A stretch of DNA of 64,000 nucleotides, taken from NCBI GenBank assembly GCA_046563655.1, contig CM102287.1, positions 4,030,001 to 4,094,000 on the forward strand, read 5' to 3'. Below are positions 39,212-64,000 of this stretch, piece by piece; the first letter of the stretch is position 1, and every line of letters begins with the position of its first letter. Under the pieces are notes generated by a model that searched no databases, was not told the DNA's origin, and worked only from the letters and a program-made list of their open reading frames with translations. Source of the DNA: Yuukianura sp. NJ FZ-2021. Lineage: Eukaryota. The position numbers and the translations under genes were made by a program.

Positions 39212-41162
39212 ATGTACGTTGTTCGGGCCGCGATCGCTTTCATTCTAGTGTTAAGCGGAAACGACGTTCAGATAACATACGCCGCTACAACAGATCTCCC
39301 ACCGTGTATACAATTAAGTAACGGAGAATATCGTAAGCTTTATCGTGACCTCTTTGACCTTTCAACTTTTGACCTTTGACCTTGACACAACTTAAGTGAT
39401 TCATTTGTTAGGTTGTCAAGATATATTCAAATGCAATCATAATGTAAATCCGCCCGTTTGCTGTCCATGGGATACACCACAAGTTACACCCAAGGGAATG
39501 TGCTTCAAAAGCGACGTCGGGCAACCATGTACTTCACCAGGTACATAAATCACAGATTTCCAAAACAAAAAAAAAGTTTAAAGCTTCTTTCAACTTAGAA
39601 ATTGAAAAATACTTTTTTAATTGCAATATTTTTTTCAGATCATTGTATATATGACCGCTGTGACCGAAAAATTTCCCGATGTGATGTCGCCAGGAAGGGA
39701 ACCTACGGTGCTTCCTGCGCCATTGACCGCGGTATTTGAAATTTGGTTCTATTTCAAATTGTTTTAAAATTTTGATTTTTTTTTAAAATTCGGATTAGGT
39801 TCCTGCAATATTAAACAGAGGCTAGTTTGCGTCAGGATGATATGTCGCTGCGAAGCAGGAACAGAATGGAAAAATAAGACATGCGTCAGCATCACGAAAA
39901 GAACGCATAACAGACCATGCATAACAACCGGTTGCATTCAAATTCAAAACTAAAAAAAATTAAAAATTTTGAATTAACTCTTGTTTTTTGAAAAACTAGA
40001 CGACTGCATCACCGAGCGACAACTGAAATGTATCAAGAAAAAATGCGACTGTGAACCAGGCTTTAGTTGGATCGAAGCAATTTGTAAAGCCAACGCAGAA
40101 CAGACAGAATGTGATCCATTCGTATTTCGTAAGTTGACCTTTGACCTTGGAAATTAAGTTGGTTTGACCTTTGACCTTTGGTGTTTTTTTAACATAGCAA
40201 ACGAGTGCCCACACGATTCGAAGCAAATGGAGTGTGACAAGAAGCTGCGCGTTTGTCGCTGTCGCCAGGACATGGAATATTCTCCGTCGATGAAGTCGTG
40301 TAAACTCAAAGCAGGAGAAAACTGTTTGATCAACAACACTTTGGAGCATGACCAATGCTTAAGTCAAAAATGTGGTAACGAAACAGAGTCCACCAATCAA
40401 ACATGCGCATGTCCACAAGACAATGGAATCCCAGCAATCTGGTCACCTGACCCACCAGGGTCATGTGTCACTGACTACTTCGGCTTTACTTGTACAGGTT
40501 ACACCATACACAAATCTTTTCACAAAATGCGGTTTCTTTTTAAAGTATTGGAATTTTTTGAAATTCAGGATCCAATTCCGAATGTCGCTCGGCAAGATTT
40601 AACAAGACTCGTCAAGGCCTCATTTGCAAAGACAACAATTGTAAATGTGCTGAAGGTTTGACCTACATAAGAGGCTACTGCGTCGTAGCTAACCTGACGT
40701 TCGGCGATCGCTGTGACCCGGGTAAGTGGCCTTGACCTTTGACCTCAAATTTCCTTGCCTGACCTTTGACCTGGATTTAGTTTGTATTCATTTGTACTTT
40801 TTGTAGATGGAGTTCGTCCTACTTGCAAGACAGATGCTGACTTGACTTGTCGAGATGTTGGAGGAGGAGACTTTAGATGCGTGTGTCTCCAGCGTGTAAT
40901 GACCGTGCGTGGGAAAAGACATACTGTGTTGTTGACCTGGAATGGTGCCCAGAAGAAGTGTGACCTCAAATCGCATGGTGAACGGTGTAAGGAAGCCATC
41001 GAATGTCGAAGTGGAGTCTGTCAAGAGACATGTGTAGGCGAACAACCCTTGCGTAGCCGACTATCGACTGGGGCGACAATCTATGAATACAATACGAAAA
41101 TCTACGACAACTACTACTTATTTCTTATTATTCCATTTAGCATGATTGTCACACTCTTTTAA
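39212..41162 (+). CDS. Cys-rich EB-module-like surface protein, copy 6
   Basis: MYVVRAAIAFILVLSGNDVQITYA...; same exon series; terminal ORF ends 41162. Confidence 0.85.
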
Positions 41163-41367
41163 CTTTTTGGTTTGTTCGCCATGTTCTGCAGTCCAGCTGA
41201 ATAAAAAAGTTTCAACTTCAAAATTTACCTCCCTTTTTATTTTTTTTTAAGTTTTTGAAAATGCGTGTACCTCTCTGTATATTTTGTTTCAAAATTTTTG
41301 GAACGATTAGATTCCAAAAAGATGATTTTGTTAGGCAGTCGTCGTGTGGTTGCTGCTTACTGCGAAA

Positions 41368-41960
41368 GCCCGTCTGCTGTCCATGGGAGATTCTAATGCT
41401 GGATGGAGGAGAATGTCGCAAAAGCAAATAAAGATGAACCATGCACTTTGCCAGGTACAGAAATCATACATTTCCAGTTCAAAAAACGTAAAAAAAAATT
41501 TTTTATATACTTAAAAATTGAATAATTACTCTTTTTAATTGAAACATTTTTGAAGTTCACTGTACACTGTAAGACATGCGTCAGAGTCCAGCAGAAAACA
41601 TCAAAATTTTGAATTTGTCGTTTTTTGAAACCAGACGACTGCATCGAAGAAAACGACTAAAGGACCATGCAAAACAAGTGGTGTGTTTTAAATTTCACAA
41701 AATTTTCAAAATTTTGAATTTCTCCTTTTTCGAAAATTTTCTTCCTCCCTACCTGCAAAGCAGATGCTGAGACGTCGCTGACTTGTAGAGATGTTGGAGA
41801 TGGAGATTTTAGATGCTTGTGACTCATGCATGAAATGACAGTGCGTGGGAAATGACATAACGGTGATAGCTACATCGAAAAGATGGAAAATCTGCGTACA
41901 GAATCGGATAACTATGTAGTTTTTTATGTTCCATTTAGCATGATCGTCGCAGTCTTTTAA
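41368..41960 (+). pseudogene. Shattered remnant of an array gene
   Basis: Collinear scraps of exon 2 (gcccgtctgctgtccatgggag), exon 4, the extra exon of copy 9 and the terminal exon, separated by large deletions; no start exon; stops present. Confidence 0.8.
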
Positions 41961-42290
41961 TTTTTTGGTGATAACTGAACAAAAAAATATTTTAAACTTC
42001 GAAATTTAGCTTCTTTCCTTCTACTTTTCTAGTAATTTCAGAAAAAATTGAACTTTTAGAAATACGTTTAGTAGTATTCTATTTACCTTGGTTTCTCCCT
42101 ATATATTCTGCTTCAAAATTTGGTTAGGGGTTGGCCACGTAGTCGCCATGGGGCTACCTTAAACTGATGCAATTGTTTACCACAAACAGTTAAAAGTTCA
42201 AAGCGGATGGAGTGATTTTTTTTTTGAAATTCGAAATTTTTGAGAATAATTTTTTTTTACAATTCCTAGTTTTATTAGATTTTTTTTGAA

Positions 42291-44219
42291 ATGTATGCTG
42301 TTCGCTCCTTGATCGTTTTCATTCTAGTCTTCAGCGGAAACTATGTTCAGAAGACTTTCGCTGCTACAGAGGATCCCCCACCGTGTGAACCAGACAGTGA
42401 AGGGCAATATGGTAAGCTTTTTTATGACTTTTGACCTTTCGACTTTTGACCTTGACACAACTGAATTCATCCGTTTGTTAGGTTGTCAAGGTTTGATTGA
42501 ATGCAAGCCCTTCATCTGCTGTAAACTGGCGGTTCCAAAGCCGGACAGAGGAACATGTCGCTTAAGCTACGACGGGGATCCATGCAAGGAATCAAGTACA
42601 GACATCACACAATTCCAGAAAAAAATGAAAAAACGTTGTTTTTTTTAAATTGGAATTTTTTTTTAATTCCAACACTTTTCAAGATCATTGTACATCCGGT
42701 TCCTGTGACACCAGCAAAGGCCAATGTCGTGGCGGGCATCCACCAAGACTTGGTGATGATTGTGCCAATGAATGTTCGTTTTCGAAATTATGTTCTATTT
42801 CAAATTCTTTCAAAATTTTTTTGATTTTGATTTTTTTTTGTAAATTATGTTTAGTTTCTTGCGATCCTAAGGCTCATATGGTATGCACCAATAGGAAATG
42901 TTCATGCCCAGAAGAATTAGAATGGGACTGGGACGTGACGGCATGCGTCGTCAAAGGAACGAAGAAAACGAAGAAAACGATTAACGCAACCTGCACAGAA
43001 GATGGTAACGTTCAAATTCAAAATTTTTGAAAAAAGTTTTGAATTTTTTGTTTTTTGAAACTAGACGAATGCATCAAAGAGCGGCAACTTAAATGTATCA
43101 ATGAAAAATGCGACTGTGGACTAGGCTTTAGTTGGATCGAAGCAATTTGTAAACCCAATGCACAACAGCCAACATGTGATCCAGCCGTATTTCGTAAGTT
43201 GACCTTTGACCTTGAAAATGAAGTTGGTTTGACCTTTGACCTTTGGTGTTTTTTTAACATAGCAAACGAGTGTCCACATGATTCGAAGCAAATGGAGTGT
43301 GACAAAGATCAGCGCGTTTGTCGCTGTCGCCAGGACATGGAATATTCTCCATCGATGAAGGCGTGTAAACTCAAAGCAGAAGAAAACTGTTTGATCAACA
43401 ACACTTTGGAGCATGACCAATGCTTAAGTCAACAATGTCTTAACGAGACAGGGTCGGCCAATCACACATGCGCATGTAAAGACAACAATGGAATTCCAGA
43501 AATCTGGTCATCTGACCCACCAGGATGTGTCACTGACTACTTTGAGTTTACTTGTTCAGGTCAGTCATACAAATCTTTTCATAAAAAGCGTTTTCTTTTT
43601 AAAGTTATTTGAATTTTTTGAATTTCAGGGTCGGAATCCGAATGTCGCCCGGCGACGTTTAACACGAGTCGTCAAGGCCTCATTTGCAAAGACAGCAGTT
43701 GTAAATGTGCTAAAGGTTTGGCCTACAAGCGAGGCTACTGCGTCGAAGCCAATCGTCTGTTCGACGATCCCTGTGACCCGGGTGAGTGACCTTGACCTTT
43801 GACCTCAAATTCATTTGCATGACCTTTGACCTCGAGTTAGTTTGGATTCATTTGTACTTTTTGTAGATGGAGTTCGTCCTACTTGCAAGGAAGATCTTGA
43901 CTTGACTTGTCGAGATGTTGGAGGAGGAGACTTTAGATGCGTGTGTCTCCAGCGTGTAATGACCGTGCGTGGGAAAAGACATACTGTGTTGTTGACCTGG
44001 AATGGTGCCCAGAAGAAGTGTGACCTCAAATCGCATGGTGAACGGTGTAAGGAAGCCATCGAATGTCGAAGTGGAGTCTGTCAAGTGACATGTGTAGGCG
44101 AACAACCCTTGCGTAGCCGACTATCGACTGGGGCGACAATCTATGAATACCATACGAAAGTCTACCATAACTACGTATTTCTTATTATTTCATTTAGCAT
44201 GATCGTCACACTCTTCTAA
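42291..44219 (+). CDS. Cys-rich EB-module-like surface protein, copy 7
   Basis: MYAVRSLIVFILVFSGNYVQKTFA...; same exon series. Confidence 0.85.
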
Positions 44220-44589
44220 AAAGCCCAACAACTTTTGTAGAGGTCATTTTTTGGGTTGTCTAGAGATGTCATTGACCTTTTTCTCGAAATTTTTCTAAGT
44301 TTTTAACATGCGCCCACATGGATATAATCCAACCACAAATTTCACTAAAAAAAATTCAAGTTTTGAAAATATGTGTACCTCTCTGTAATTATTTTGTTTC
44401 AAAATTTTTGGAACGATTGGATTTGAAAAAAGATGATTTTGTTAGGAAGTCGTCGTGTGGTTGCTGCTTCTATTTTATGTAGTACTTTGTTTAAGTAAAA
44501 ACAACAAAAGTTCAAAGGAGAGTAAATTTTTGTAACCCGTTTTGGAGACATTTTTTTTCTAATCTCTAATCTTGGCAGATATTTTTGAA

Positions 44590-46527
44590 ATGTGCGCTGC
44601 TCGTTCCTTGGTCATTTTCATTCTAGTCTCCAGTGGAAACTACGTTCAGAATACATACGCCGCTACAGAGGATCCCCCACCGTGTACCCAAGAAAGTAAC
44701 GGACAATATCGTAAGTTTTTTTTATGACCTTTGACCTTTGACCTTGACACAACTTAAGTGATTCATTTGGCAGGTTGTCAAAGTGTATTCAAATGCAATC
44801 ATAATGTAAATCCGCCCGTTTGCTGTCCACGGGAGACTCCAATGCTGGATGGAGAAAACTGTCGCAAAGGCAAAATGGGGGATCCATGCACTTCACATTG
44901 TACAGAAATCACACATTTCCAGAGAAAAAAATTCTTTAAGAGAGTTTTTCTTAAAAAACTAAAAACTAATCTTTAATTCCAACATTTTTGAAGATCATTG
45001 TATATCTAATGACTGTTACATCGACATACGGCAATGTCATGACATCAGACCAGACCCTTCATCATTCGGGGCTCAATGTGTCACTGACAGTTCGTTTTCA
45101 AAATTTTGTTCTATCAAATTCGTTCAAAATTTTTATTTTTTTTTCATAATTTCTGTATAGGTACTTGCAATACTCAGAAGCGGCTGGCTTGTAGAAATGA
45201 GAAATGTCTCTGCAAAATAAATGGAACAACGTGGAACAAGAAGGAGGGATGCATAAAAGCCCAAAAGAAAACAATAGACGGATCCTGCAAAGCGAATGGT
45301 GTACTTCAAATTTCAAAAAAATAACAATCAAAATTTTGAATTTCTCATTTTTTGAAAATACAGACGACTGCATCGCCGAGCGAAAACTGAAATGTATCAA
45401 TGAAACATGCGGCTGTGAACCAGGCTTTAGTTGGATCGAAGCAATTTGTAAACCCAAAGAAAAACAGACAATATGCGATCCATTCGTATTTCGTAAGTTG
45501 ACCTTTGACCTTGGAAATGAAGTTGGTTTGACCTTTGACCTTTGGTGTTTCTTTTAACGTAAGCAAACGAGTGTCCACATGATTCGAAGCAAATGGAGTG
45601 TGACAAAAATCAACGCGTTTGTCGCTGTCCCCTGGACATGGAATTTTCTCCAGCGATGAGATCGTGTAAACTCAAAGCAGGAGAAAACTGTTTGATCAAT
45701 GGAACACTGGAACACGACCACTGCGCAAGTCAACATTGTCTAGGCAAGACAGAGTCGACCAATCAAATCTGCGCATGCCCACAAAACAATGGAATCCCAG
45801 AGATCTGGTCATCCGAACCAGGTGAACGATGTGTCACTGACTACTACGGCTTTACATGCTCAGGTCACTCCTTACACAAATATTTTCATAAAAAGACGTT
45901 TTCTTTTTAAAGTTATTTCAATTTTTTGAATTTCAGGAGCCGATTATGAATGTCGCTCGGGAACGTTTAACTCTAGTCGCAAAGGCCTCATTTGCAAAGA
46001 CAACAATTGTCAATGTGATGAGGGTTTGACCTACCTTAGAGGCTACTGCGTCGTAGCTAACCTGACGTTCGGCGATCGCTGTGACCCGGGTGAGTGACCT
46101 TGACCTTTGACCTCAAATTAGTTTGCATGACCTTTGACCTGGAGTTAGTTTGGATTCATTTGTACTTTTTGTAGATGGAGTTCGTCCTACTTGCAAGACA
46201 GATGCTGACTTGACTTGTCGCGATGTTGGAGGAGGAGACTTTAGATGCGTGTGTCTCCAGCGTGTAATGACCGTGCGTGGGAAAAGACATACTGTGTTGT
46301 TGACCTGGAATGGTGCTGAGAAGAAGTGTGACCTCAAATCGCATGGTGAACGGTGCAAGGAAGCCATCGAATGTCGAAGTGGAGTCTGTCAGGAGACATG
46401 TGTAGGCGAACAACCCTTGCGTGGCTCACTATCGACTGGGGCGACAATCTATGAATACAATACGAAAGTGTACAATAACTACGTATTTCTTATTATTTCA
46501 TTTACAATGTTAGTCACACTCTTTTAA
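44590..46527 (+). CDS. Cys-rich EB-module-like surface protein, copy 8
   Basis: MCAARSLVIFILVSSGNYVQNTYA...; same exon series. Confidence 0.85.
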
Positions 46528-46888
46528 TTTTTTGGTGTTCCCCATGTTTATCAGTTGACAAACTGAAGAAAAAATTTTTCAATTTCAATTTCAACATTTA
46601 GCTCTCTTTTTTTTTATTTTTATTTTTTTACACATTTCACAAAAAAAATTCAAGTTTTGAAAATATGTGTACCTGTCTGTATATTTTGTTTCAAAATTTT
46701 TGGAACGATTGGATTCGAAAAATATGATTTTGTTAGGCAGTCCGCAGTCGTCGTGTGGTTGCTGCTTCCATTTATTTATGTAATTTGTTTACTACAAACA
46801 ATAAAAGTTTAAAGGGGGAATGAATTTTTTTTTGAAATTCGAAATTTTTGATAGATTTTTTTTATATTTCTGGCACATATTTTTGAAA

Positions 46889-49009
46889 ATGTACGCTGTT
46901 CGCTTCTTGATCATTTTTATTCTAGTCTTCAGCGGAAACTACGTTCAGAAGACTTCTGCTGCTAGGGGTCCCCCACCGTGTAAACGAGAAAGTAACGGAC
47001 GATATCGTAAGTTTTTCTATGACCTTTGACCTTTCAACTTTTGACCTTTGACCTTGACACAACTGAATTCATCCATTTGTTAGGTTGTCAAGGTGTGTTC
47101 GAATGCAATCATAATGTAAATCCCGCCGTCTGCTGTCCATGGGAGAGACCAATGCTGGACGGGGGGCAATGCCGCCTAAGCAACGTCGGAGAACCATGCA
47201 CTGTTCCATGTACAGAAATCACACATTTCCAAAATAAAAAAAAGTTAAAAAAAATTTTTTAACTAAAAATGAAGCATGTTTTTTTTAATTGTAACATTTT
47301 TGAAGATCATTGTAGAAATGATGACTGTGACACCGGAGTAAGCCAATGTCGTGCTCCGAAACCAAAACCTTCAACATACGGTGGTCCCTGTGTCAATGAC
47401 AGTTCGTTTTCGAAATTTGGTTCTATTTTAAATTTTTTCAAAATTTTGATTTTTTTTAAAAACAATGTGTGCAGATTCTTGCGATACTCAGGAGGAACTG
47501 GTTTGCACAAAAGGGAAATGTTCTTGCAAAGTAGGATCAGAATGGAACAAGAACACATGCGTCAGAGTCCAAAAGAAAAAGCCTAACGGAACATGCACAA
47601 AAAATGGTAACTTTCAAATTCAAAACTAAAAAACATCCAAATTTTGAATTTCTCGTTTTTTGAAACCAGACGACTGCATCACCAAGCGACAACAGAAATG
47701 CATCGACGGAAAATGTTCCTGCCCAGCAGGATTAGAAGGAAAACAGGACGCGTGCTTCGTCCCGAAGAAAACGACTAAAGGACCGTGCAAAACAAATGGT
47801 GTGTTTTAAATTTCACAAAATTTTCAAAATTTTGAATTTCTCTTTTTCTTAAAAACTAGACGAATGCATCAAAGAGCGGCAACTTAAATGTATCAATGAA
47901 AAATGCGACTGTGAACCAGGCTTTAGTTGGATCGAAGCAATTTGTAAACCCAAAGCAGAACAGCCAAAATGCAATCCATCCGTATTTCGTAAGTTGACCT
48001 TTGACCTTGAAAATGAAGTTGGTTTGACCTTTGACCTTTGGTGTTTTTTAACATAGCAAACGAGTGTCCTCATGATTCGAAGCAAATGGAGTGTGACAAA
48101 GATCAGAAAGTTTGTCGCTGTCGCCAGGACATGGAATATTCTCCATCGATGAAGGCGTGTAAACTCAAAGCAGGAGAGAACTGTTTGATCAACAACACTT
48201 TGGAGCATGACCAATGCTTAAGTCAACAATGTGGTAACAAGACAGAGTCCATCAATCAAACCTGCGCATGTCCACAAAACAATGGAATTCCAGAAATCTG
48301 GTCATCTGACCCACCAGGATGTGTCACTGACTACTTCAACCTTCCTTGTACAGGTAACACCATACACAAATCTTTTCATATAAAGTGTTTCCTTTCTAAA
48401 GTTATTTGAATTTTTTTGATTTCAGAATCCGATTACGAATGTCGCCCGGCGACATTTAACACGAGTCGTCAAGGGCTTATTTGCAAAGACAACATTTGTC
48501 AATGTGATGAAGGTTTGACCTACAAACGAGGCTACTGCGTCCTAGCTAACCTACTGTTCGGCGATCGCTGTGACCCGGGTGAGTGACCTTGACCTTTGAC
48601 CTCAAATTTCTTTTTTTGACCTTTGACCTTGAGTTAGTTTGGATTCATTTGTACTTTTGTAGATGGATTTCGTCATACCTGCAACACAGATCTTGACTTG
48701 ACTTGTCGCGATGTTGGAGGAGGAGACTTTAGATGCGTGTGTCTCCAGCGTGTAATGACCGTGCGTGGGAAAAGACATACTGTGTTGTTGACCTGGAATG
48801 GTGCCCAGAAGAAGTGTGACCTCAAATCGCATGGTGAACGGTGTAAGGAAGCCATCGAATGTCGAAGTGGAGTCTGTCAAGTGACATGTGTAGGCGAACA
48901 ACCCTTGCGCAGCACACTAGCTACCGACAGGGGCGAAAATCTACGTATACAATATCCTAATTCCGTATTTTTTATTGTTCCATTTAGCATGATCGTCACA
49001 GTCTTTTAA
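46889..49009 (+). CDS. Cys-rich EB-module-like surface protein, copy 9 (9 exons, one extra module)
   Basis: MYAVRFLIIFILVFSGNYVQKTSA...; additional in-frame 129-nt phase-1 exon at 47670-47798. Confidence 0.85.
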
Positions 49010-49224
49010 TTTTTTGGTTTAACTGAACAAAAAATATTTTAAACCTCGAAATTTAGCTTCTTTTCTTCTAATTTTAGAAAAAAATTGAAGTTTTAAAAAT
49101 ACGCTTTTTTCTTTATATTTTGCTTCAAAATTTGCTCAGGGGTCGGTCGGCCGCGTAGTCGCCATGGGACTGCCTTAAACTGACGCGTTTGTTTACCACA
49201 AACAGTTAAAAGTTCAAAGTGGAG

Positions 49225-49656
49225 CACAGTGGGGCCGAATCAAAAATAACGCGCCACCGTTGTTAGGGGAAACGTGAAGTTAAATTTTGCAATTACATTA
49301 AAAATGAATGTCAAAATCAGGGTTTAGAAAGATCAAATCGTCCAAAAATGTCCATTACCTACAGGTAACCTGAATATCGTAATAAAAACTAGACAGCATC
49401 ACGTACCAAGTCCGACCGCCACTTGGCGCCACTTTACCAATTTAGTATTTTTAACCGATTTTTGAAGTTGGTGAAAAATTTGGTGAATGGGGGGTCAGCT
49501 AGGTCACCACGCATAAAAATTGAAGGCGCATAGTGTTTACAGTTGCTATGCCGATAATTTAGCGATTGTTTCGCCTCCATAATTGTGTATTTTTCAACAC
49601 TTAATTTGTTTCCCCCGAAACGCTTGTCGTTGTTTGTATGAATCGACCCCACTGTG
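49225..49656. mobile_element. Non-autonomous Transib-type DNA transposon (432 bp)
   Basis: TIRs CACAGTGGGGCCGAATCA / (reverse complement) CACAGTGGGGTCGATTCA; 5-bp TSD TGGAG at 49220-49224 and 49657-49661; empty site aaagTGGAGggagtga in the paralogous spacer at ~54124-54139. Confidence 0.88.
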
Positions 49657-49743
49657 TGGAGGGAGTGATTTTTGTTTGAAATTCGAAATATTTTAGACTA
49701 ATTTTTTGATTCACAATTCATAATTTTATTCCATGTTTTTGAA

Positions 49744-51704
49744 ATGTACGCAGTTGGCTCCTTGATCATTTTCATTCTAGTCTTCAGCGGAAGCTACGTT
49801 CAGAAGACTTCCGCTGCTATACAGAATAGCCCCACGTGTGAACCAAACAGTGAAGGACAACTACGTAAGCTTTTTATGATCTTTGACCTTTCAACTTTTG
49901 ACCTTGGCACAACTGAATTTATCCGTTTGTTAGGTTGTCAAGGTTTGTTCAAATGCGATCATAGTGTAAATCCGCCCGTCTGCTGTGCAGGGGACGCTCC
50001 AATTTTGGACAGAGGATACTGTCGCAAAGGTTACGGCGGGGAACTATGCACAAACTCATGTACAGAAATCACACATTTTCAGATCAAATGAAAAAAAAAG
50101 TTTGTTTTTTTAACTTAAAAATTGCAAAACGTTTTCTTTTTTTTTCTTTTTTTTTATAATTGTAACATTTTGGAAGATCATTGTAAATCCGGCAACTGTG
50201 ACACCAGTCAACGCAAATGTACTGGTCCGAACCCAAATGATGCAAAATTCGGTGCTCCTTGTATCGATGACGGTTCGTTTTCGAAATCTGGTTCTTATTT
50301 CAAATTCTTTCAAAATTTTGATTTTTTTTTGTAAATTATGTGTAGTTACTTGCGATCCTAAGGCGAATCTGGTATGCACCAATAGAAAATGTTCATGCCC
50401 AGAAGAATTAGAATGGGACGTGACGGCATGCGTCGTCAAAGGGACGAAGAAAACGAGGAAAACGATTAACGGAACGTGCACAGCAGATGGTAACCTTCAA
50501 ATTCAAAACTTTTGAAAAAAGTTTTGAATTTTTTGTTTTTTTTTTAAACTAGACGAATGCATCAAAGAGAGACGCCTGAAATGTATCAATGAAACTTGCA
50601 ACTGTGAACCAGGCTTTAGTTGGATCGAAGCAATTTGTAAACCCAAAGAAAAACAGACAACATGTGATCCAGACGTATTTCGTAAGTTGACCTTTGACCT
50701 TAGAAATCAAGTTGTTTGACCTTTGACCTTTGGTGTTTTTTTAACATAGCAAACGAGTGTCCACATGATTCGAAGCAAATGGAGTGTGACAAAGTTCAGA
50801 AAGTTTGTCGCTGTCGCCAGGACATGGAATATTCTCCATCGATGAAGGCGTGTAAACTCAAAGCAGGAGAAAACTGTTTGATCAACAACACTTTGGAGCA
50901 TGACCAATGCTTAAGTCAAAAATGTGGTAACGAAACAGAGTCCACCAATCAAACATGCGCATGTCCACAAGACAATGGAATCCCAGCAATCTGGTCACCT
51001 GACCCACCAGGGTCATGTGTCACTGACTACTTCGGCTTTACTTGTACAGGTTACACCATACACAAATCTTTTCTTAAAATGCGGTTTCTTGTTAAAGTAT
51101 TTGAATGTTTTGAATTTCAGGATCCAATTCCGAATGTCGCCCGGCGACATTTAACACGAGTCGTCAAGGCCTCATTTGCAAAGACAACTTTTGTCATTGC
51201 GAGGAAGGTTTGACCTACCTGAGAGGCTACTGCGTCGTAGCTAACCGGACGTTCGGCGATCCTTGTGACCCGGGTGAGTGACCTTGACCTTTGACCTCAA
51301 ATTCCTTTGCATAACCTTTGACCTCGAGTTAGTTTGCATTCATTTGTACTTTTGTAGATGGATTTCGTCCTACTTGCAAGACTGATGCTGACTTGACTTG
51401 TCGCGATGTTGGAGGAGGAGACTTTAGATGCGTGTGTCTCCAGCGTGTAATGACCGTGCGTGGGAAAAGACATACTGTGTTGTTGACCTGGAATGGTGCC
51501 CAGAAGAAGTGTGACCTCAAATCGCATGGTGAACGGTGTAAGGAAGCCATCGAATGTCGAAGTGGAGTCTGTCAAGTGACATGTGTAGGTGAACAACCCT
51601 TGCGCAGCACACTAGCTACCGACGGGGGCGAAAATCTACGTATACAATATCCTAATTCCGTATTTTTTATTGTTCCATTTAGCATGATCGTCACAGTCTT
51701 TTAA
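49744..51704 (+). CDS. Cys-rich EB-module-like surface protein, copy 10
   Basis: MYAVGSLIIFILVFSGSYVQKTSA...; same exon series. Confidence 0.85.
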
Positions 51705-51986
51705 TTTTTTGGTTTAACTGAACAAAAAATATTTTAAACTTTTTTCTTCTAATTTCAGAAAAAAATTGAAGTTTTAAAAATACGTTGTTTTTTATATGTT
51801 TTGCTTCAAAATTTGTTCAGGGGGCTGGTCGCGTAGTCGCCATGGGACTGCCTTAAACTGACGCGTTTGTTTACCACAAAACAGTTAAAAGTTCAAAAAA
51901 GAGGGAATGATTTTTTTTTGAAATTCGAAATTTTTGAGAGTATTTTTTTTTTTACAATTCCTAATTTTATTAGATTTTTTTTTGAA

Positions 51987-53923
51987 ATGTACGTTGTTCG
52001 CTTCTTGATCGTTTTCATTCTAGTCTTCAGCGGAAACTGCGTTCAGAAGACTTCCGCTGCTGAAGAGGATCGCCCACCGTGTGAACAAAACAGTGAAGGA
52101 CAATATCGTAAGCTTTTTTTTATGACTTGTGACCTTTCGACTTTTGACCTTGACACAACTGAATTTATTCGTTTGTTAGGTTGTCAAAGTTTGTTCGAAT
52201 GCGATCATACTGTAAATCCGCCCGTCTGCTGTCCATGGAACGCTGCAATCATGGACGGAGGAAACTGTCGCACAGGCCACCACGGGGAACCTTGCACAAA
52301 ATCATGTACAGAAATCAAACATTTTCAGAACAAATGAAAAAAAAAGTTTTTTTTAACTTAAAAATTGCAAAATGTTTTTTTTATAATTGTAACATATTTT
52401 TGAAGATCATTGTGCATCCGGCACCTGTGACACCAAAAAACGACAATGTCGTGGCCAGAACCCAAATACTTTAAAACTCGGTGATCCTTGTATCGATGAC
52501 TGTTCGTTTTCGAAATCTTTTTATTTCAAATTCATTCAAAATTTTGATTATTTTTTAAATGTTGTATAGATTCTTGCGATAGTGCGATCCAGGAGCGACT
52601 GGTCTGCAGCAATGGGAAATGTTCATGCCCAGGAGGATTAGAATGGAACCAGGCGGCATGTGTCGTCAGAGGCCCGAAGAAAATGATTAACGGAACCTGC
52701 TCAATAAGTGGTAACGTTCAAATTCAAAACTACAAAAAAAAATAAAAAGTTTGAATTTTTTGGTTTTTGAAACTAGACGAATGCAGCGGAGAGCGACAAC
52801 TGAAATGTATCAATAAAACATGTAACTGTGATCCAGGCTTTAGTTGGACCGAAGCAATTTGTAAAGCCAAAGCACATCAGACAAAGTGCGATCCATCCGT
52901 ATTTCGTAAGTTGACCTTTGACCTTGAAAATGAAGTTGGTTTGACCTTTGACCTTTGGTGTTTTTTTAACATAGCAAACGAGTGTCCTCATGATTCGAAG
53001 CAAATGGAGTGTGACAAAGATCAGAAAGTTTGTCGCTGTCGCCAGGACATGGAATACTCTCCATCGATGAAGGCGTGTAAACTCAAAGCAGGAGAGAACT
53101 GTTTGATCAACAACACTTTGGAGCATGACCAATGCTTAAGTCAACAATGTCTTAACGAGACAGGGTCCACCAATCACACATGCGCATGTAAAGACAACAA
53201 TGGTGTCTCACAAATCTGGTCATCAGGCGAAGGTTGTGTCACTGACTATTATCGCTTTACCTGTTCAGGTCACTCCTTACACAAATCTTTTCACAAAAGG
53301 CGTCTTCTTTTTAAAGTATTTGAATTTTTTGAATTTCAGGATCCGATTCCGAATGTCGCCCGGCAACATTCAACACTAGTCGTCAAGGGCTCATATGCAA
53401 AAACCACATTTATTGTCAATGTAATGAAGGTTTGACCTACCTGAGAGGCTACTGTGCCGTAGCTAACCGGACGTTCGGCGATCGCTGTGACCCGGGTAAG
53501 TGACCTTGACCTTTGTCCTCAAATTAGTTTGCATGACCTTTGACCTGGATTTAGTTTGGATTCATTTGTACTTTTGTAGATGGAGTTCGTCCTACTTGCA
53601 AGACAGATGCTGACTTGACTTGTCGAGATGTTGGAGGAGGAGACTTTAGATGCGTGTGTCTCCAGCGTGTAATGACCGTGCGTGGGAAAAGACATACTGT
53701 GTTGTTGACCTGGAATGGTGCGCAGAAGAAGTGTGACCTCAAATCACATGGTGAACGGTGCAAGGAAGCCATCGAATGTAGAAGTGGTGTGTGTCAAGAG
53801 ACGTGTGTAGGCGAACAACCGTTACATAGCCGACTATCGACTGGGGCGACATTCGATACGAAAGTTTACAATAACTACGTATTTCTTATTATTCCATTTA
53901 GCATGATCGTCACACTCTTTTAA
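51987..53923 (+). CDS. Cys-rich EB-module-like surface protein, copy 11
   Basis: MYVVRFLIVFILVFSGNCVQKTSA...; same exon series. Confidence 0.85.
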
Positions 53924-56164: not shown

Positions 56165-56452
56165 ATTTTTGGTTGTAACTGAACTAAATAATTTTAAACT
56201 TTGAAATTTAGCTTCTTTTCTTCTAATTTCAGAAAAAATTTGAAGTTTTAAAAATACGTTTCTTTCTATATATTTTGCTACAAAATTTGGTTACGAGTTG
56301 GCCGTGTAGTCGCCATGGGACTGCCGTAAACTGACGCAGTTGTTTAGCACAAACAGTTAAAACTTCAAAGTGGATGAGTGATTTTTTTTTAAATTCGAAA
56401 TATTTGAAAGTATTTTTTTTTAAATTCCTAATTTTATTAGATTCTTTTTGAA

Positions 56453-58411
56453 ATGTATGTTGTTCTCTCCTTGATCATTTTCATTCTACTCTTCAGCGGA
56501 AACTACGTTCAGAAGACATACGCCGCTTCCGCTCCAGATATCCCACCGTGTAAAAAAGACAGTGAAGGACAATTACGTAAGCTTTTTATGACCTTTGACC
56601 TTTCAACTTTTGACCTTGGCACAACTGAATTTATTCGTTTGTTAGGTTGTCAAGGTGTGTTCGAATGCAATCATAATGTAAATCCGCCCGTCTGCTGTTC
56701 ATTGGTGGCTCCAATTATAGACGGAGGAGAATGTCGCAAAGCCAACGACGGAGAACCATGCAGAGAAAATTGTACAGAAATCACACATTTTCAGAACAAA
56801 GGAAAAAAAAACTTTTTTTAAGTTAAAAATTGAAAAATGTTTTTTTTAATAATTGTAACATTTTTGAAGATCAATGTCAAGCCGGTTACTGTGGTCCCAC
56901 CAAACATTGTCGTGGCGGGGTCCCATATATTTCACCATACGGTGGTCCCTGTCTCACTAACAGTTCGTTTTCCAAATTTGGTTCTTATTTCAAATTCTTT
57001 CAAAATTTTGATTTTTTTTTGAAAATTCTCTATAGATTATTGCGAGCCTCAGAAACAACTGGTTTGCTTCCAGAAGAAATGTTCCTGCCCAGAAGGATTA
57101 AAATGGAACCAGGAGACATGCTTCATCAGAGGCCCGAAGAAAACGATTAACGAATCCTGCTCAAAAACTGGTAACGTTCAAAGTTAAAACTAAGAAAAAA
57201 AAATAAGAATTTTGAATTTTTCGTTTTTTGAAACTAGAGGAATGCAGCACCCAGCGACTACTGAAATGTATCAACCAAACATGCGACTGTGAACCAGGCT
57301 TTAGTTGGACCGAAGCAATTTGTAAAGCCAAATCAGAACTGACAACATGCGATCCAGACATATTTCGTAAGTTGACCTTTGACCTTGGAAATTAAGTTGG
57401 TTTGACCTTTGACCTTTGGTGTTTTTTAACATAGCAAACGAGTGTCCACATGATTCGAAGCAAATGGAGTGTGACAAAGTTCAGCGCGTTTGTCGCTGTC
57501 GCCAGGACATGGAATATTCTCCATCGATGAAGGCGTGTAAACTCAAAGCAGGAGAAAACTGTTTGATCAACAACACTTTGGAGCATGACCGCTGCGCAAG
57601 TCAACATTGTGGTAACGATGAGAAAGACTCCACCGATCATAACTGCGCATGTCCACACAACAATGGAATCCCGGAAATCTGGTCACCAGGCGCACAGGCA
57701 GGTTGTGTCACTGACTACTTCGAATTTTCCTGTTCAGGTCACTCCTTACACAAATCTTTTCCCAAAAGGCTGTTTCTTTTTAAAGTAATTTGAATTTTTT
57801 GAATTTCAGGATCCGATTCCGAATGTCGCCCGGCAAAATTCAACACTAGTCGTGAAGGGCTTATTTGCAAAGACAACTTTTGTCATTGTGAAAAAGGTTT
57901 GGCCTACCTTAGAGGCTACTGCGTCGTAGCTAACCTGACGTTCGGCGATCGCTGTGACCCGGGTGGGTGACCTTGACCTTTGACCTCAAATTTCTTTGCA
58001 CGACCTTTGACCTCGAGTTACTTTGGATTCATTTGTACGTTTGTAGATGGAGTTCGTCCTACCTGCAAGCCAGATGCTGGTTTGACTTGTCGCGATGTTG
58101 GAGGTGGAGACTTTAGATGCGTGTGTCTCGTGCGTGAAATGACCGTGCGTGGGAAAAGACACACTGTGTTGTTGACCTGGAACGGTGCCGAGAAGACGTG
58201 TGACCTCAAATCGCATGGGGAACGGTGCAAAGAAGCCATCGAATGTCGAAGTGGAGTCTGTCAAGAGACATGTATAGGTGAACAACCCTTCCGTAGCCGA
58301 CTATCGACTGGGGCGACAATCTACCTGTTCAATACGAAAGTTTACAATAACTACGTATTTCTTATTATTTCATTTAACATTACCCTCACACTATTAAATT
58401 TTTGGTGGTAA
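56453..58411 (+). CDS. Cys-rich EB-module-like surface protein, copy 13
   Basis: MYVVLSLIIFILLFSGNYVQKTYA...; same exon series. Confidence 0.85.
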
Positions 58412-58659
58412 CTGAAGAAAAACTTTTTAAACTTCCTTTAGCTTCCTTTTTTTAAAATTTTAGAAAAAAAAAAGAATTTGAAGTGTTGAAAATAAATACA
58501 TGTATCTCCCTGTATATTCTGTTTCAAAATTGTTGAAACGATTGGATTTGAAAAAGATGATTGTGTTGGTGCCAGTCAGTCGTCGTGTGGTTGCTGCTTA
58601 CAATAATAATAAACCGGTTGTAAACCGCATATAATGAAGATAGCTCAGCGATAAGGCGT

Positions 58660-58850
58660 TGGAGGGGGGGGGGGTCTCCCGGGGGGTGCGGGGGTGAGCT
58701 CCCCCCGGGGTTGTAGGGGTAGGTTCCCACGGGTGTGCGGGGGTGGGATTCTCCCAGGGGTGTGGGATGTGTCCCTCTATGGGTGTGTGGGGCGGGTCCC
58801 CCAGGGGTGTGGGGTGGGTCCCCCAGGGGTGTGGGCGTGTGTTCCCCCCA
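58660..58850 (+). repeat. G-rich degenerate minisatellite (~21-23-nt unit CCCCAGGGGTGTGGGGTGGGT, ~8 units) within a ~470-bp foreign insert
   Basis: Visible directly; strongly GC-rich against the AT-rich background; repeated at ~61945-62135. Confidence 0.8.
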
Positions 58851-59159
58851 CTTCTCCGCTGGCAGGACGTTGAAATGAAAAAAGAAGTTGACCTTTGACC
58901 AAGAACAAGGCCACTTGGGGTAATGTGATGGACACAAAAGTTGTTGGACTCGATGAGACGAACAACTTGTGTAGAAGTCATTTTCCATGTTGCCGGGGCT
59001 GAAACCGGTTGACCTTGACCTTTGACCCAGAAGGAGTTTAGCCACCGGGATCATATTCAATAGTGATCATGTCACAGTCTTTTAATTTTTTGTGGTTACT
59101 AACTGAACATAAAAATTTTCAAGTTCGAAATCTTAGCTTCTTTTTTTCTAATTTCAGAA

Positions 59160-59452
59160 TTTTTTTTAACTAATCGTAAGTACTATAAAATTATATTTAT
59201 TAATAGAAAAACAGTTTCATGATACTTATGGGCTAAAGGTAGTATACTCCGTATAAATCTTCGCCGGGTGGAAGAGTTCCTAAGATGAAGGCACAATTTC
59301 CTGTTTGAATGCCAATGCTGATTGTTGGTAGCAGAAAAGCAGTGGCTCTTGGTTCTCCAGTGTATTCAACAAGGCGTCGACTTCAGTAGCTTCAACCCTT
59401 CGTTTCCGAAAACTCCAGTAGATTCAACAGCGATGATTAAAACGATGAAGTG
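59160..59452 (-). mobile_element. 5'-truncated non-LTR retrotransposon (CRE-like clade, C-terminal restriction-like endonuclease region)
   Basis: Minus strand reads IAVESTGVFGNEGLKLLK/(frameshift)RRLVEYTGEPRATAFLLPTISIGIQTGNCAFILGTLPPGEDLYGVYYL*, then AATAAA and an A-run; TSD ATTTCAGAA at 59151-59159 and 59453-59461. Confidence 0.75.
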
Positions 59453-59757
59453 ATTTCAGAAATTTTTTTGGAGTTAGGTTAGGTTAGGCAGGTTGAGAGA
59501 TTTAAGAAATGTCGTTAATGATTAAAGCATGTAGATTTCGTAGAGTTCTTTTTTTTTTTTGCTTCAAAATTTGATTAGGGGTTGGCCGCGTAGTCGCCAT
59601 GGGACTACCTTAAACCGACGCATTTGTGTACCACAAACAGTGAAAAGTCAAGAAGGAGGGAGTGATTTTTTTTTGTTTTTTTGAAAATAGAAATTTTTGA
59701 AAGTAAATTTTTTTTTCAATTCCTAATTTTATTAGAATTTTATTCCATGTTTTTGAA

Positions 59758-61682
59758 ATGTACGCTGTTCGCTCCTTGATCGTTTTCATTCTAGTCTTCA
59801 GCGGAAGCTACATTGAGAAGACTTCCGCTGCTACAGAGGATCCCCCACCTTGTGAACCAGACAGTGAAGGGCAATATGGTAAGCTTTTTTATGACTTTTG
59901 ACCTTTCGACTTTTGACCTTGACACAACTGAATTCATCCGTTTGTTAGGTTGTCAAGGTTTGATTGAATGCAAGCCCTTCATCTGCTGTAAACTGGCGGT
60001 TCCGAAGCCGGACAGAGGAACATGTCGCTTAAGCTACGACGGGGATCCATGCAAGGAATCAAGTACAGACATCACACAATTCCAGAAAAAAATGAAACAA
60101 CGTTTCTTTTTTAAATTGCAATTTTTTTTTAATTCCAACACTTTTCAAGATCATTGTACATCCGGTTTCTGTGACACCAGCAAAGGCCAATGTCGTGGCG
60201 GGTATCCACCAAGACTTGGTGATGATTGTGCCAATGAATGTTCGTTTTTGAAATTATGTTCTATTTCAAATTCTTTGAAAATTTTGATTTTTTTTTGTAA
60301 ATTATGTATAGTTGCTTGCGATCCTAAGGCGCATATGGTATGCACCAATAGGAAATGTTCATGCCCAGAAGAATTAGAATGGGACAGGGACGTGACGGCA
60401 TGCGTCGTCAAAGGAACGAAGAAAACGAAGAAAACGATTAACGCAACCTGCACAGAAGATGGTAACGTTCAAATTCAAAATTTTTGAAAAAAGTTTTGAA
60501 TTTTTTGTTTTTTGAAACTAGACGAATGCATCAAAGAGCGACTACTGAAATGTTACAATGGAACATGCGACTGTGAACCAGGCTTTAGTTGGATCGAAGC
60601 AATTTGTAAACCCGTAGCAGAACAGACAAAATGCGATCCAAACACATTTCGTAAGTTGACCTTTGACCTTGAGAATGAAGTTGGTTTGACCTTTGACCTT
60701 TGGTGTTTTTAACATAGCAAACGAGTGTCCTCATGATTCGAAGCAAATGGAGTGTGACAAAGTTCAGAAAGTTTGTCGCTGTCGCCAGGACATGGAATAT
60801 TCTCCATCGATGAAGGCGTGTAAACTCAAAGCAGGAGAGAACTGTTTGATCAACGGTACACTGGAGCATGACCAATGCTTAAGTCAACAATGTGGTAACA
60901 ATGAGAAAGAGTCCACCGATCATAACTGCGCATGCCACAACCAGAATGGAATCCCGGAAATCTGGTCATCAGGCACACCAGGCAGTTGTGTCACTAACTA
61001 CTTCGACTTTACCTGTTCAGGTCACTCCTTACGCAAACCTTTTCATAAAAAGCTTTTTCTTTTTAAAGTATTTGAATTTTTGGAATTTCAGGATCCAATT
61101 CCGAATGTCGCCCGGAGACATTTAACACGAGTCGTCAAGGGCTCATTTGCAAAAACAACATGTGTAAATGTGAAGAAGGTTTGACCTACATAAGAGGCTA
61201 CTGCGTCGTAGCTAACCGGACGTTCGGCGATCCCTGTGACAAGGGTGAGTGACCTTGACCTTTGACCTCAACTTTCTTTGCATGACCTTCGACCTGGATT
61301 TAGTTTGTATTCATTTGTACTTTTTGTAGATGGAATTAGTCCTACTTGCAAGATAGATGCTGACTTGACTTGTCGCGATGTTGGAGGAGGAGACTTTAGA
61401 TGCGTGTGTCTCCAGCGTGTAATGACCGTGCGTGGGAAAAGACATACTGTATTGTTGACCTGGAATGGTGCCCAGAAGAAGTGTGACCTCAAATCGCATG
61501 GTGAACGGTGTAAGGAAGCCATCGAATGTCGAAGTGGAGTCTGTCAAGAGACATGTGTAGGCGAACAACCCGTGCCAATCCGACGATCGACTGGGACGAC
61601 AATCTACGTATACGATACAAAAGTCTACGCTAACTACATATTTCTTATCATTTCATTTAACATGATCCTCACACTCTATTAA
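59758..61682 (+). CDS. Cys-rich EB-module-like surface protein, copy 14 (chimera of copy-7-like 5' half and copy-12-like 3' half)
   Basis: MYAVRSLIVFILVFSGSYIEKTSA...; same exon series. Confidence 0.85.
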
Positions 61683-61944
61683 ATTTTTGGTGGTAACTGA
61701 AGAAAAACTTTTTAAACTTCCTTTTAGCTTCCTTTTTTTTTAAATTTTAGAAAAAAAAAGAATTTGAAGTGTTGAAAATAAATACAGTGTATCTCCCTGT
61801 ATATTCTGTTTCAAAATTGTTGAAACGATTGGATTTGAAAAAGATGATTGTGTTGGTGCCAGTCAGTCGTCGTGTGGTTGCTGGTTACAATAATAATAAA
61901 CCGGTTCTAAACCGCATATAATGAAGATAGCTCAGCGATAAGGC

Positions 61945-62135
61945 GTTGGAGGGGGGGGGTCTCCCGGGGGGTGCGGGGGTGAGTTCCCCCCGGGGTTGTA
62001 GAGGTAGGTTCCCACGGGTGTGCGGGGGTGGAATTCTCCCAGGGGTGTGGGATGTATCCCTCTATGTGTTCGTGGGGCGGGTCCCCCAGGCGTGTGGGGT
62101 GGGTCCCCCGGGGGTGTGGGCGTGTGTTCCCCCAC
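61945..62135 (+). repeat. Second copy of the G-rich minisatellite insert
   Basis: Near-identical to 58660-58850; part of a ~1.1-kb duplicated spacer. Confidence 0.8.
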
Positions 62136-62442
62136 TTCTCCGCTGGCAGGACGTTGAAATGAAAAAGAAGTTGACCTTTGACCAAGAACGAGGTCACTTG
62201 GGGTAATGTGATGGACACAAAAGTTGTTGGACTCGATGAGACGAACAACTTTTGTAGAAGTCATTTTCCATGTTGCCGGGGCTGAAACCGGTTGACCTTG
62301 ACCTTTGACCCAGAAGGAGTTTAGCCACCGGGATCATATTCAATAGTGATCATGTCACAGTCTTTTAATTTTTTGTGGTTACTAACTGAACATAAAAATT
62401 TTCAAGTTCGAAATCTTAGCTTCTTTTTTTCTAATTTCAGAA

Positions 62443-62736
62443 TTTTTTTTTAACTAATCGTAAGTACTATAAAATTATATTTATTAATAGAAAAACAGTT
62501 TCATGATACTTATGGGCTAAAGGTAGTATACTCCGTATAAATCTTCGCCGGGTGGAAGAGTTCCTAAGATGAAGGCACAATTTCCTGTTTGAATGCCAAT
62601 GCTGATTGTTGGTAGCAGAAAAGCAGTGGCTCTTGGTTCTCCAGTGTATTCAACAAGGCGTCGACTTCAGTAGCTTCAACCCTTCGTTTCCGAAAACTCC
62701 AGTAGATTCAACAGCTATGATTGAAACGATGAAGTG
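62443..62736 (-). mobile_element. Second (co-duplicated) copy of the truncated CRE-like non-LTR fragment
   Basis: Near-identical to 59160-59452 with the same TSD ATTTCAGAA (62434-62442, 62737-62745). Confidence 0.75.
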
Positions 62737-62993
62737 ATTTCAGAAAATTTTTTGGAGTTTTAAAAATACGTTTTTTTATTATTTTGCTTCAAAATTTGAT
62801 TAGGGGTTGGCCGCGTAGTCGCCATGGATGGGACTACCGTAAACCGACGCATTTGTGTACCACAAACAGTGAAAAGTCAAAAAGGAGCAGGAGGGAGTGA
62901 TTTTTTTGTTTTTTTTTGAAAATAGAAATTTTTGAAAGTAAATTTTTTTTTTCAATTCCTAATTTTATTAGAGTTTTATTCCATGTTTTTGAA

Positions 62994-64000
62994 ATGTACG
63001 CTGTTCGCTCCGTGATCATTTTCATTCTAGTCTTCAGCGGAAACTACGTTCAGAAGACTTCCGCTGCTGAAGAGGATCTCCCACCGTGTGTAAAAGACAG
63101 TGAAGGACAAGATCGTAAGCTTCTTTATGACTTTTGACCTTTCGACTTTTGACCTGGCACAACTGAATTCATCCGTTTGGTAGGTTGTCAAAGTGTGTTC
63201 AAATGCAATGATAAGGTAAAACCGCCCGTCTGCTGTCCATGGAACGCTCCAATTATGAGCGAAGGAAAGTGTCGCGCAGGCCTCGGCGGCGTGGATCCAT
63301 GCACGGAACCAAGTACAGAAATCACACATTTTCAGAACAAACAAAAAAAAGTGTTTTTTAACTTAAAAATAGTTTTTTTTTTAAATTGAAAAAATGTTTA
63401 ATTGTAAGAATATAAATATTCTTTTTTTAATAATTGTAACATTTTTGAAGATCATTGTATATCCGGTGACTGTGACACCAGCCAAGGCGAATGTCGTGGC
63501 GGGAGACCAAATCTCTCAACATACGGGGGCCATTGTATCAATAAAAGTTCGTATTCGAAATTTGATTCTATTTCAAATTATTTCAAAATTTTGATTTTCT
63601 TTTTAAATTCTGTATAGATAATTGCGATCCTAAGGAACTGGTCTGCACCAATACCAAATGTTCATGCCCAGCAGGATTAAAATGGAACCAGACGGCATGC
63701 GTTGCCAGAGGCCCGACGAAAACGATTAACGAACCCTGCTCAACGGATGGTAACGTTCAAATTCAAAACTAAAAAATAGAAATTTTTTTGAATTTTTTGC
63801 TTTTTGAAAAACTAGACGACTGCATCACCGAGCGACAGCTGAAATGTATCAACCAAAAATGCGACTGTGACCCAGGCTTTAGTTGGACCGAAGCAATTTG
63901 TAAAGCCAAATCAGAACTGCCAACATGCGATCCAGACGTATTTCGTAAGTTGACCTTTGACCTTGGAAATTAAGTTGGTTTGACCTTTGACCTTTGGTGT
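62994..64000 (+). CDS. Cys-rich EB-module-like surface protein, copy 15 (exons 1-5, cut by the window end)
   Basis: MYAVRSVIIFILVFSGNYVQKTSA...; the window ends in intron 5. Confidence 0.8.

What the first reader, a model, noticed from the sequence alone, without database searches (positions are those of the whole stretch)
39212..64000. Array copies are exon-level mosaics of non-adjacent paralogs
Seen: copy 14 exons 1-4 match copy 7 (GLIECKPFICCKLAVPKPDRG; DTSKGQCRGGxPPRLGDDCANE) while its exons 6-8 match copy 12 (GTPGSCVTNYFDFTC; DGISPTCKIDAD). Copy 10 has a copy-7-like exon 4, a copy-6 exon 6 (NETESTNQTCACPQDNGIPAIWSPDPPGS) and a copy-9 tail (LRSTLATDxGENLRIQYPNSV). Copy 15 exons 3-5 resemble copy 12. 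Inference: ongoing gene conversion or unequal crossover generates combinatorial module diversity.
Basis: partly seen in the sequence, partly recalled or inferred. Interest (0 to 1): 0.72.

Follow-up and report, generated by a model that had tools for sequence, protein, structure and literature searches.

The report
Patchwork tandem surface-protein gene array
About twenty neighbouring copies of a cysteine-rich cell-surface protein gene in a small arthropod have repeatedly copied pieces of DNA into one another, so several copies are patchworks; this is real but is an ordinary process, and the pieces mostly do not follow exon borders.

Summary
The mosaics are real. All 11 core copies modelled (c5-c15) are intact 8-exon genes (c9 has 9) for 468-508-aa Cys-rich proteins with signal peptide and GPI-like tail. 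Against about 85% background identity, c14 carries a c7 tract (97.6%), a c12 tract (97.1%) and a c15 tail (100%); c10 carries c7/c14, c6 (99.2%) and c9 (99.4%) tracts. Segment trees conflict and clonal simulations do not reproduce the signal. One c14 junction is bridged by a public-run contig. 'Exon-level' is wrong: 12 of 18 located tract ends lie inside exons, 4 in introns, as intron length alone predicts. Best reading: germline interlocus gene conversion plus unequal crossover, homogenising the membrane-proximal half (92-94% aa in two blocks) while the N-terminal half stays near 50%. dN/dS there is 1.13, not significantly above 1. The family has no convincing homologues outside this genome. 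An immune or recognition role is possible but untested. The scan noted conversion patchwork in another array of this genome and in other genomes.

The parts
24780..35731 (+). Outer copies c1-c4 of the same family, with an orphan 3' fragment at about 29236-29789; older subfamily, also sharing high-identity blocks (27815-28227 vs 31105-31518, 97.6%)
   Evidence: full gene models not built
36729..38683 (+). Copy c5, 8 exons, 478 aa, intact
39212..41162 (+). Copy c6, 470 aa, 50 Cys; exons 39212-39332, 39412-39540, 39639-39731, 39799-39930, 40000-40128, 40198-40497, 40569-40721, 40807-41162; all introns GT-AG, phase 1
41253..42027 (+). Decayed remnant between c6 and c7: fragments of flank, of a c9-type extra exon (41645-41729, 96.5% to 47763-47847) and of exon 8 with 2 stops
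42291..44219 (+). Copy c7, 468 aa; 5' part shared with c14
44590..46527 (+). Copy c8, 471 aa
46889..49009 (+). Copy c9, 508 aa, 9 exons
47670..47798 (+). Extra in-frame 129-nt exon of c9: starts like exon 5, ends like exon 4; adds one 6-Cys module (inferred unequal exchange between modules)
49744..51704 (+). Copy c10, 471 aa, mosaic
50312..50573 (+). c10 tract shared with c14/c7 (exon 4 with flanking intron; 93.5% and 92.7%); the one tract with both ends placed in introns
50849..51084 (+). c10 tract shared with c6 (99.2%; 88 variable sites in a row without a mismatch); begins inside exon 6
51389..51704 (+). c10 tail shared with c9 (99.4%); begins inside exon 8
51987..53923 (+). Copy c11, 468 aa
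54220..56164 (+). Copy c12, 471 aa; shares tracts with c14, c15 and c13
56453..58411 (+). Copy c13, 475 aa
58348..59475 (+). 1.13-kb spacer duplicated at 61631-62759 (97.1%); marks a recent tandem duplication or long exchange around c14/c15
59758..61682 (+). Copy c14, 470 aa, three-way mosaic
59826..60539 (+). c14 tract shared with c7 (10 mismatches in 388 variable sites); the upstream DNA is only 84% c7-like, so the tract is an internal patch
60862..61451 (+). c14 tract shared with c12 (97.1%); both ends inside exons (6 and 8)
61558..61682 (+). c14 tail identical to c15 (125 of 125)
62994..64000 (+). Copy c15, 470 aa; continues 974 bases beyond the window (L001:2001-2974). Tract 63633 onward is 94.2% c12, with exon 5 at 99%

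Best explanation
A lineage-specific tandem array of about 20 genes encodes secreted, probably GPI-tethered proteins built of small disulphide-braced (EB/EGF-like) modules. Because the roughly 2-kb units are 80-92% alike and lie head to tail, they misalign during germline DNA repair or meiosis. Strand invasion into a non-allelic copy overwrites 60-800-base patches (interlocus gene conversion); occasional unequal crossovers add or delete units or modules (the duplicated 1.13-kb spacer, c9's extra exon, the remnants). Patches start and stop without regard to exon borders. Frames survive because all copies share one exon and cysteine scaffold. Shown: mosaic tracts, conflicting trees, intact frames, sub-exonic ends, a conserved membrane-proximal half and a divergent N-terminal half. 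Inferred: conversion as the mechanism of each tract, its direction, germline timing, the GPI anchor, and the N-terminal half as the ligand-facing part.
For: Tracts of 97-100% against 85% background. Internal patches with unshared flanks: c14/c7 upstream only 84%; c10/c6 bounded on both sides. 7 segment trees, 42 of 42 cross-tests rejected (highest AU p 0.022); pairs c7+c14 (100), c12+c14 (100), c14+c15 (100), c6+c10 (99), c9+c10 (100) in different segments. Incompatibility rises steadily with distance, 0.34 to 0.54. Clonal simulations fall far short. 11 of 11 modelled copies intact; 49 of 50 cysteines invariant over c6-c15. Contig in run X3, 60387-60591, 0 differences, joins 154 bases identical to c7 to 51 bases that differ from every other core copy at 5 or more places. 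Conversion is reported mainly above 80% identity (PMC3924818, passage).
Against: A single assembly cannot separate conversion from double or serial unequal crossover, nor give donor and recipient: both c7 and c14 score as recombinants. Only 1 junction was seen bridged among the listed pieces; the runs are short contigs and 5933 pieces were not shown. The 7 segments were chosen after seeing the tracts, which favours rejection. The simulations had fewer informative sites than the data (121 against 268). Many shared blocks in exon 8 may reflect conservation rather than exchange. Tract ends are not significantly enriched in conserved stretches (0.869 against 0.846, P 0.14). No RNA evidence for splicing or expression was obtained.
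Confidence: 0.85

Rival explanations
1. Exon shuffling: whole exons are exchanged as cassettes by recombination in introns.
For: All introns are phase 1, so any exon swap keeps the frame. c10's exon-4 tract has both ends in introns. Introns 5 and 7 are very alike (about 95%). c9 has gained one module-sized exon.
Against: Of 18 located ends of 10 chosen tracts, 12 are inside exons, 4 in introns, 2 straddle; introns are 27% of the gene (512 of 1925 bases). Same-exon site pairs are as incompatible as cross-intron pairs or more in 4 of 4 distance classes (0.45/0.42, 0.54/0.45, 0.54/0.48, 0.58/0.51). c9's extra exon is itself a hybrid joined inside exons.
Confidence: 0.05
2. Assembly artefact: reads of different paralogues or haplotypes were stitched into chimeric copies; c14/c15 with the duplicated spacer could be a false duplication.
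For: Some tracts are 99-100% identical (c10/c6, c10/c9, c14/c15). The spacer duplication is 97% alike, within the range of differences between the public runs and the assembly. Most junctions were not seen bridged.
Against: The long tracts carry 2-7% differences, including amino-acid changes, so they are not copies of one read set. Every copy, not only c10 and c14, shows switching. The c14 exon 4/5 junction is in a public-run contig; those runs hold only 0.23-0.60 of the sampled words, so they are probably not the assembled individual. Frames are intact in 11 of 11. The contig is 10.7 Mb without N in the window.
Confidence: 0.05
3. Selected diversifier: the array is a pathogen- or self-recognition receptor family, and exchange is favoured because it recombines variable N-terminal tips with constant stalks.
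For: N-terminal mature part 50% aa identity with 16 of 17 Cys invariant; blocks in exons 6 and 8 at 92-94%. dN/dS 1.13 in the N-terminal part, 1.37 without Cys columns (bootstrap P 0.01), 0.50 in exon 5 to exon 8 core. No broken frame among 11 core copies. Surface-protein layout. Similar pattern to APL1 (abstract) and SpTransformer (passages).
Against: Over all N-terminal codons dN/dS is not significantly above 1 (P 0.19); dropping Cys columns biases it upward, and recombination disturbs such tests (own knowledge). dS is also higher there (0.33 against 0.19), as expected if that half simply escapes homogenisation. No expression, induction or binding data. No homology to a known immune family. 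This reading adds to the best explanation; it does not replace it.
Confidence: 0.25
4. No exchange: a clonal birth-and-death array in which patchy rates and convergent substitutions mimic mosaics.
For: Identity varies strongly along the gene (0.64 to 0.99 in 40-column windows).
Against: Tracts include introns and silent sites (I1 and I4 of c7/c14 100%). 0 of 200 clonal simulations with patchy rates approach either statistic.
Confidence: 0.01

Closest known systems
Interlocus gene conversion between duplicated genes (review PMC3924818; passages read)
   Same: Patches copied between paralogues above about 80% identity; detected as over-long shared fragments.
   Different: Nothing in the mechanism. 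Here at least ten copies act as one exchanging pool, so three- and four-way mosaics are visible in a single haplotype.
Anopheles funestus APL1 paralogues (bioRxiv 10.1101/2021.11.25.470000; abstract and outline read)
   Same: Arthropod paralogues on one chromosome whose diversity is attributed to gene conversion.
   Different: APL1 is a leucine-rich-repeat protein with a known immune role and population data; four paralogues. Here about 20 Cys-rich, GPI-type genes with no tested function.
Sea-urchin SpTransformer (Sp185/333) family (PMC8634487; passages read)
   Same: Clustered invertebrate genes with mosaic sequence; conversion and unequal crossover invoked.
   Different: SpTrf has two exons, presence/absence elements, flanking microsatellites and shown microbe binding. 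Here the module layout is fixed (8 exons), and none of those features was found or tested.
EB-module proteins (Pfam PF01683; arthropod proteins auto-named 'prion-like-(Q/N-rich) domain-bearing protein 25')
   Same: Repeated 6-Cys modules; weak EB hits in 4 of 11 exon translations; nearest Atlas cluster for exon 6 scores 0.91.
   Different: No exon reaches the EB cut-off (best 15.3 against 24.3 bits); Atlas sharing is 152 of 256 features, below the usual 170; no alignable homologue outside this genome.

Membership tests
Interlocus gene conversion mosaic | High-identity tracts between non-allelic copies above background | tested here: met
Interlocus gene conversion mosaic | Incongruent trees along the gene | tested here: met
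   (42 of 42 cross-tests rejected; segments chosen after seeing tracts)
Interlocus gene conversion mosaic | Tract is an internal patch with unshared flanks | tested here: met
   c14/c7, c14/c12, c10/c6, c10/c7; the tails c10/c9 and c14/c15 run past the stop and could be crossovers
Interlocus gene conversion mosaic | Non-reciprocal transfer with known donor | not testable with these tools
   needs meiotic products or outgroup haplotypes; both partners score as recombinant
Interlocus gene conversion mosaic | Paralogue-specific variants segregating between individuals | tested here: inconclusive
   joint 49151 to 51830 in 3 of 4 runs, 2 studies; may be a c10 allele or a deletion
Exon shuffling | Symmetric intron phases around exons | tested here: met
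   all introns phase 1
Exon shuffling | Junctions in introns; exons inherited whole | tested here: not met
   12 of 18 ends in exons, 4 in introns; same-exon pairs no more compatible
EB module proteins (PF01683) | Match at the Pfam gathering score | tested here: inconclusive
   single exons only: best E 0.021, 15.3 bits against 24.3; hits cover profile positions 25-52 only, so modules straddle introns; the spliced protein was not scanned
EB module proteins (PF01683) | Fold shared with a solved EGF/EB-like domain | tested here: inconclusive
   exon-8 model pLDDT 83; best Z 2.4, no Foldseek hit at E 0.001
GPI-anchored surface proteins | Hydrophobic N-terminus, no internal membrane segment, hydrophobic C-terminus without cytoplasmic tail, small-residue site upstream | tested here: met
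   11 of 11: N-terminal 15-mer hydropathy 1.9-2.8, C-terminal 1.65-2.4, internal at most 1.35; the spacer is longer than the textbook one (recalled) in c5-c15; no predictor was run
GPI-anchored surface proteins | Release by PI-PLC | not testable with these tools
   bench test
Diversified invertebrate immune families (APL1, SpTrf type) | Positive selection on the exposed part | tested here: inconclusive
   dN/dS 1.13 (P 0.19); 1.37 without Cys columns (P 0.01, biased)
Diversified invertebrate immune families (APL1, SpTrf type) | Induction by, or binding to, microbes | not testable with these tools
   no RNA holder listed

The most novel reading that the evidence does not exclude
An undescribed, lineage-restricted family of GPI-tethered Cys-module receptors in a basal hexapod-like arthropod uses frequent segmental exchange among about 20 tandem genes to recombine hypervariable N-terminal tips and a second variable patch (3' half of exon 6) on a homogenised stalk, giving a population-level recognition repertoire that differs between individuals; a counterpart of SpTransformer or APL1 built on a different scaffold.
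Probability: 0.2. Interest if true: 0.7.

Novelty: new member of a known kind. Interest (0 to 1): 0.35.

Why it matters
The process is textbook, so the mosaics alone would not surprise a specialist. The value is the case: eleven intact 2-kb genes, each spannable by one long read, where tract ends can be mapped to tens of bases, with a sharp contrast between a variable N-terminal half and a homogenised stalk. If the proteins prove to bind microbes or mediate self-recognition, this would be a new diversified recognition family in a little-studied arthropod group. If not, it is one more concertedly evolving array.

Tried and rejected
Homologue searches: exon 6 and the exon-8 profile found none at E 0.001 among longer proteins; the full HMMER scan gave 7 weak hits (E 1e-6 to 8e-4) over 21-33 residues of generic Cys repeats, unnamed or hypothetical, not taken as homologues. 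Folds: exon-8 model gave no significant match (weak rows were EGF-type and knottin-type domains); the exon-6 model was poor (pLDDT 60) and was not searched. No RNA holder listed. Contig depth was not used as copy number; it did not settle whether the 1.13-kb spacer is duplicated in the public samples. The idea that tract ends favour conserved stretches was tested and not significant (P 0.14). Identity falls only weakly with distance in the array (rho -0.26, P 0.08). c1-c4 and c16-c20 were left out of the recombination statistics (too divergent, not fully modelled); c9's extra exon was left out of alignments; c5 was left out of dN/dS. Literature searches with no paper: EB module + Collembola; springtail + EB domain; six-term array search; GPI + variant surface + mosaic genes. 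These cover open-licence papers only, so absence from print is not shown. The Folsomia candida genome paper (PMC5490193, passages) discusses conversion for palindromes, not this family. No supplements were read. Complex prediction was not used: no binding claim is made.
Full report
Setting. The window is G000:C5:4030001-4094000 of a 98.7-Mb, 22-contig genome. The gene upstream of the array encodes a CLIC chloride channel whose best named relatives are from Thermobia and Orchesella at 82%, so the organism is a pancrustacean arthropod, plausibly a basal hexapod; this is an inference from one exon. A protein search with exon 8 found 27 matches: 22 in this locus (one a remnant with 2 stops, one an orphan 3' fragment), 1 on C6 and 4 on C1. 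The array thus holds about 20 genes, from window 24780 to about 18 kb beyond the window's end.

Gene models. All have GT-AG, phase-1 introns and an open frame of 468-508 residues with 50-56 cysteines. c9 has a ninth, 129-base exon that begins like exon 5 and ends like exon 4. Each protein has a hydrophobic start, no internal hydrophobic segment and a hydrophobic end with little or no tail, the layout of a GPI-anchored protein (no predictor run). Pfam gives only sub-threshold EB hits on 4 of 11 exon translations, the Atlas points to EB-rich arthropod clusters at 0.82-0.91, a lead only, and no convincing homologue was found outside this genome.

The observation. Painting each copy from the others gives for c14: c7 over 779 bases (97.6%, next best 82.8%), c12 over 590 bases (97.1%, next 90.2%), c15 over the last 125 (100%, next 86.4%). 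For c10: c14/c7 over 262 bases (93.5%), c6 over 236 (99.2%, next 89.8%), c9 over 316 (99.4%, next 92.1%). For c15: c12 over 434 bases (94.2%). Background identity is 85%.

More than chance. A GENECONV-like test found 18 mismatch-free and 23 mismatch-tolerant fragments among 55 pairs; those in exon 8 may partly reflect conservation. 125 of 499 triplets reached the permutation floor. Seven segment trees rejected one another in 42 of 42 tests, with the key pairs at 99-100 support; the segments were chosen after seeing the tracts. Incompatibility between sites rises from 0.34 at under 25 bases to 0.54 beyond 800. In 200 clonal simulations with locally varying rates neither statistic came near the data (5.95 against at most 2.74; -0.125 against at least -0.036), although the simulations held fewer informative sites.

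Not exon-level. For 10 tracts that I picked from the painting, 18 ends could be placed: 12 inside exons, 4 inside introns, 2 straddling; introns are 27% of the gene. Site pairs within an exon were as incompatible as pairs across an intron, or more, in 4 of 4 distance classes. Only c10's exon-4 tract fits a cassette swap. Ends were not significantly enriched in conserved stretches.

Conversion and crossover. The c7 tract in c14 is an internal patch: the upstream DNA is 84% c7-like but 91.5% c15-like. c14 and c15 share promoter and tail, and the 1.13-kb spacers on either side of c14 are 97% alike. The simplest history, inferred, is a recent tandem duplication giving c14 and c15, then overwriting by c7-type and c12-type tracts; direction cannot be fixed. 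c9's hybrid exon and the remnant at 41253-42027 show unequal exchange as well.

Read check. Five DNA runs of two studies hold 0.20-0.60 of the sampled words; none is on record as RNA. Four were laid, all as short contigs. One X3 contig (60387-60591, 0 differences) joins 154 bases identical in c7 and c14 to 51 bases private to c14, supporting that junction. Other junctions were not seen bridged among the pieces shown. A join of c9's 3' flank to c11's promoter (49151 to 51830) appears in X1, X3 and X4; it may be a haplotype lacking c10 or a c10 allele with a c9-type flank, since all four runs also carry c10-like 5' sequence. It is a weak hint that the array varies between individuals.

Selection. 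Over c6-c15 the N-terminal mature region is 50% identical in protein, the first half of exon 6 92%, its second half 68%, the exon-8 core 94%; 49 of 50 cysteines are invariant. dN/dS is 1.13 in the N-terminal region (P 0.19 for exceeding 1), 1.37 without cysteine columns (P 0.01, biased upward), and 0.50 from exon 5 to the exon-8 core; dS is 0.33 against 0.19. This fits diversifying selection but also relaxed constraint with less homogenisation.

Comparison. The mechanism is interlocus gene conversion as reviewed in PMC3924818 (passages). Arthropod and echinoderm immune families with the same signature are APL1 (abstract) and SpTransformer (PMC8634487, passages); this array works like them in how copies exchange, but membership in an immune class is untested. 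Four searches found no paper on this family, within open-licence papers only. Earlier AI notes of this scan report a conversion patchwork in another array of this genome and a transposon in an outer copy of this array; they were leads, not support.

Verdict. Observation confirmed; interpretation partly supported. A clean, dense example of an ordinary process in an orphan surface-protein family. Interest 0.35; the recognition-repertoire reading has about a one-in-five chance and would deserve 0.7.

Noticed in passing
window 23053-63992: The 12-mer TGACCTTTGACC occurs 70 times, all on the + strand (0.01 expected), mostly in introns 1, 5 and 7 of the array but also in a CLIC intron. Counts are inflated by the duplications. 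It reads as the reverse complement of an AGGTCA direct repeat (nuclear-receptor site; recalled), or may be a genome-wide intron motif.
   Followed up: partly
window 49226-49657: About 430-base insertion between c9 and c10 with imperfect terminal inverted repeats (seen; missed) and high contig depth: MITE-like, inside c10's promoter.
   Followed up: partly
window about 28250-28310 and 34840-34930: In c2 and c4, exon 6 is interrupted by a short AT-rich stretch that starts with GT and ends with AG; c3 lacks it. Possible intron gain.
   Followed up: no
L001:5975-10000 and L002:1-9750: Outer copies c17-c20 have several more N-terminal module exons than the core copies; module number varies along the array.
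   Followed up: no
L002:296-1713: An insertion with inverted ends interrupts a module exon of an outer copy; noted earlier as a Tc1/mariner element (e1-7496434).
   Followed up: no
window 58660-59060 and 61945-62345: GC-rich minisatellite next to a very high-copy repeat inside the duplicated spacer.
   Followed up: no
window 36059-36375: 108-base inverted repeat (89%) between c4 and c5.
   Followed up: no
L004:5240-6770: A single, shorter family member on C6, downstream of a gene that reads like uricase (recalled motif, not searched); candidate outgroup for rooting the array.
   Followed up: partly
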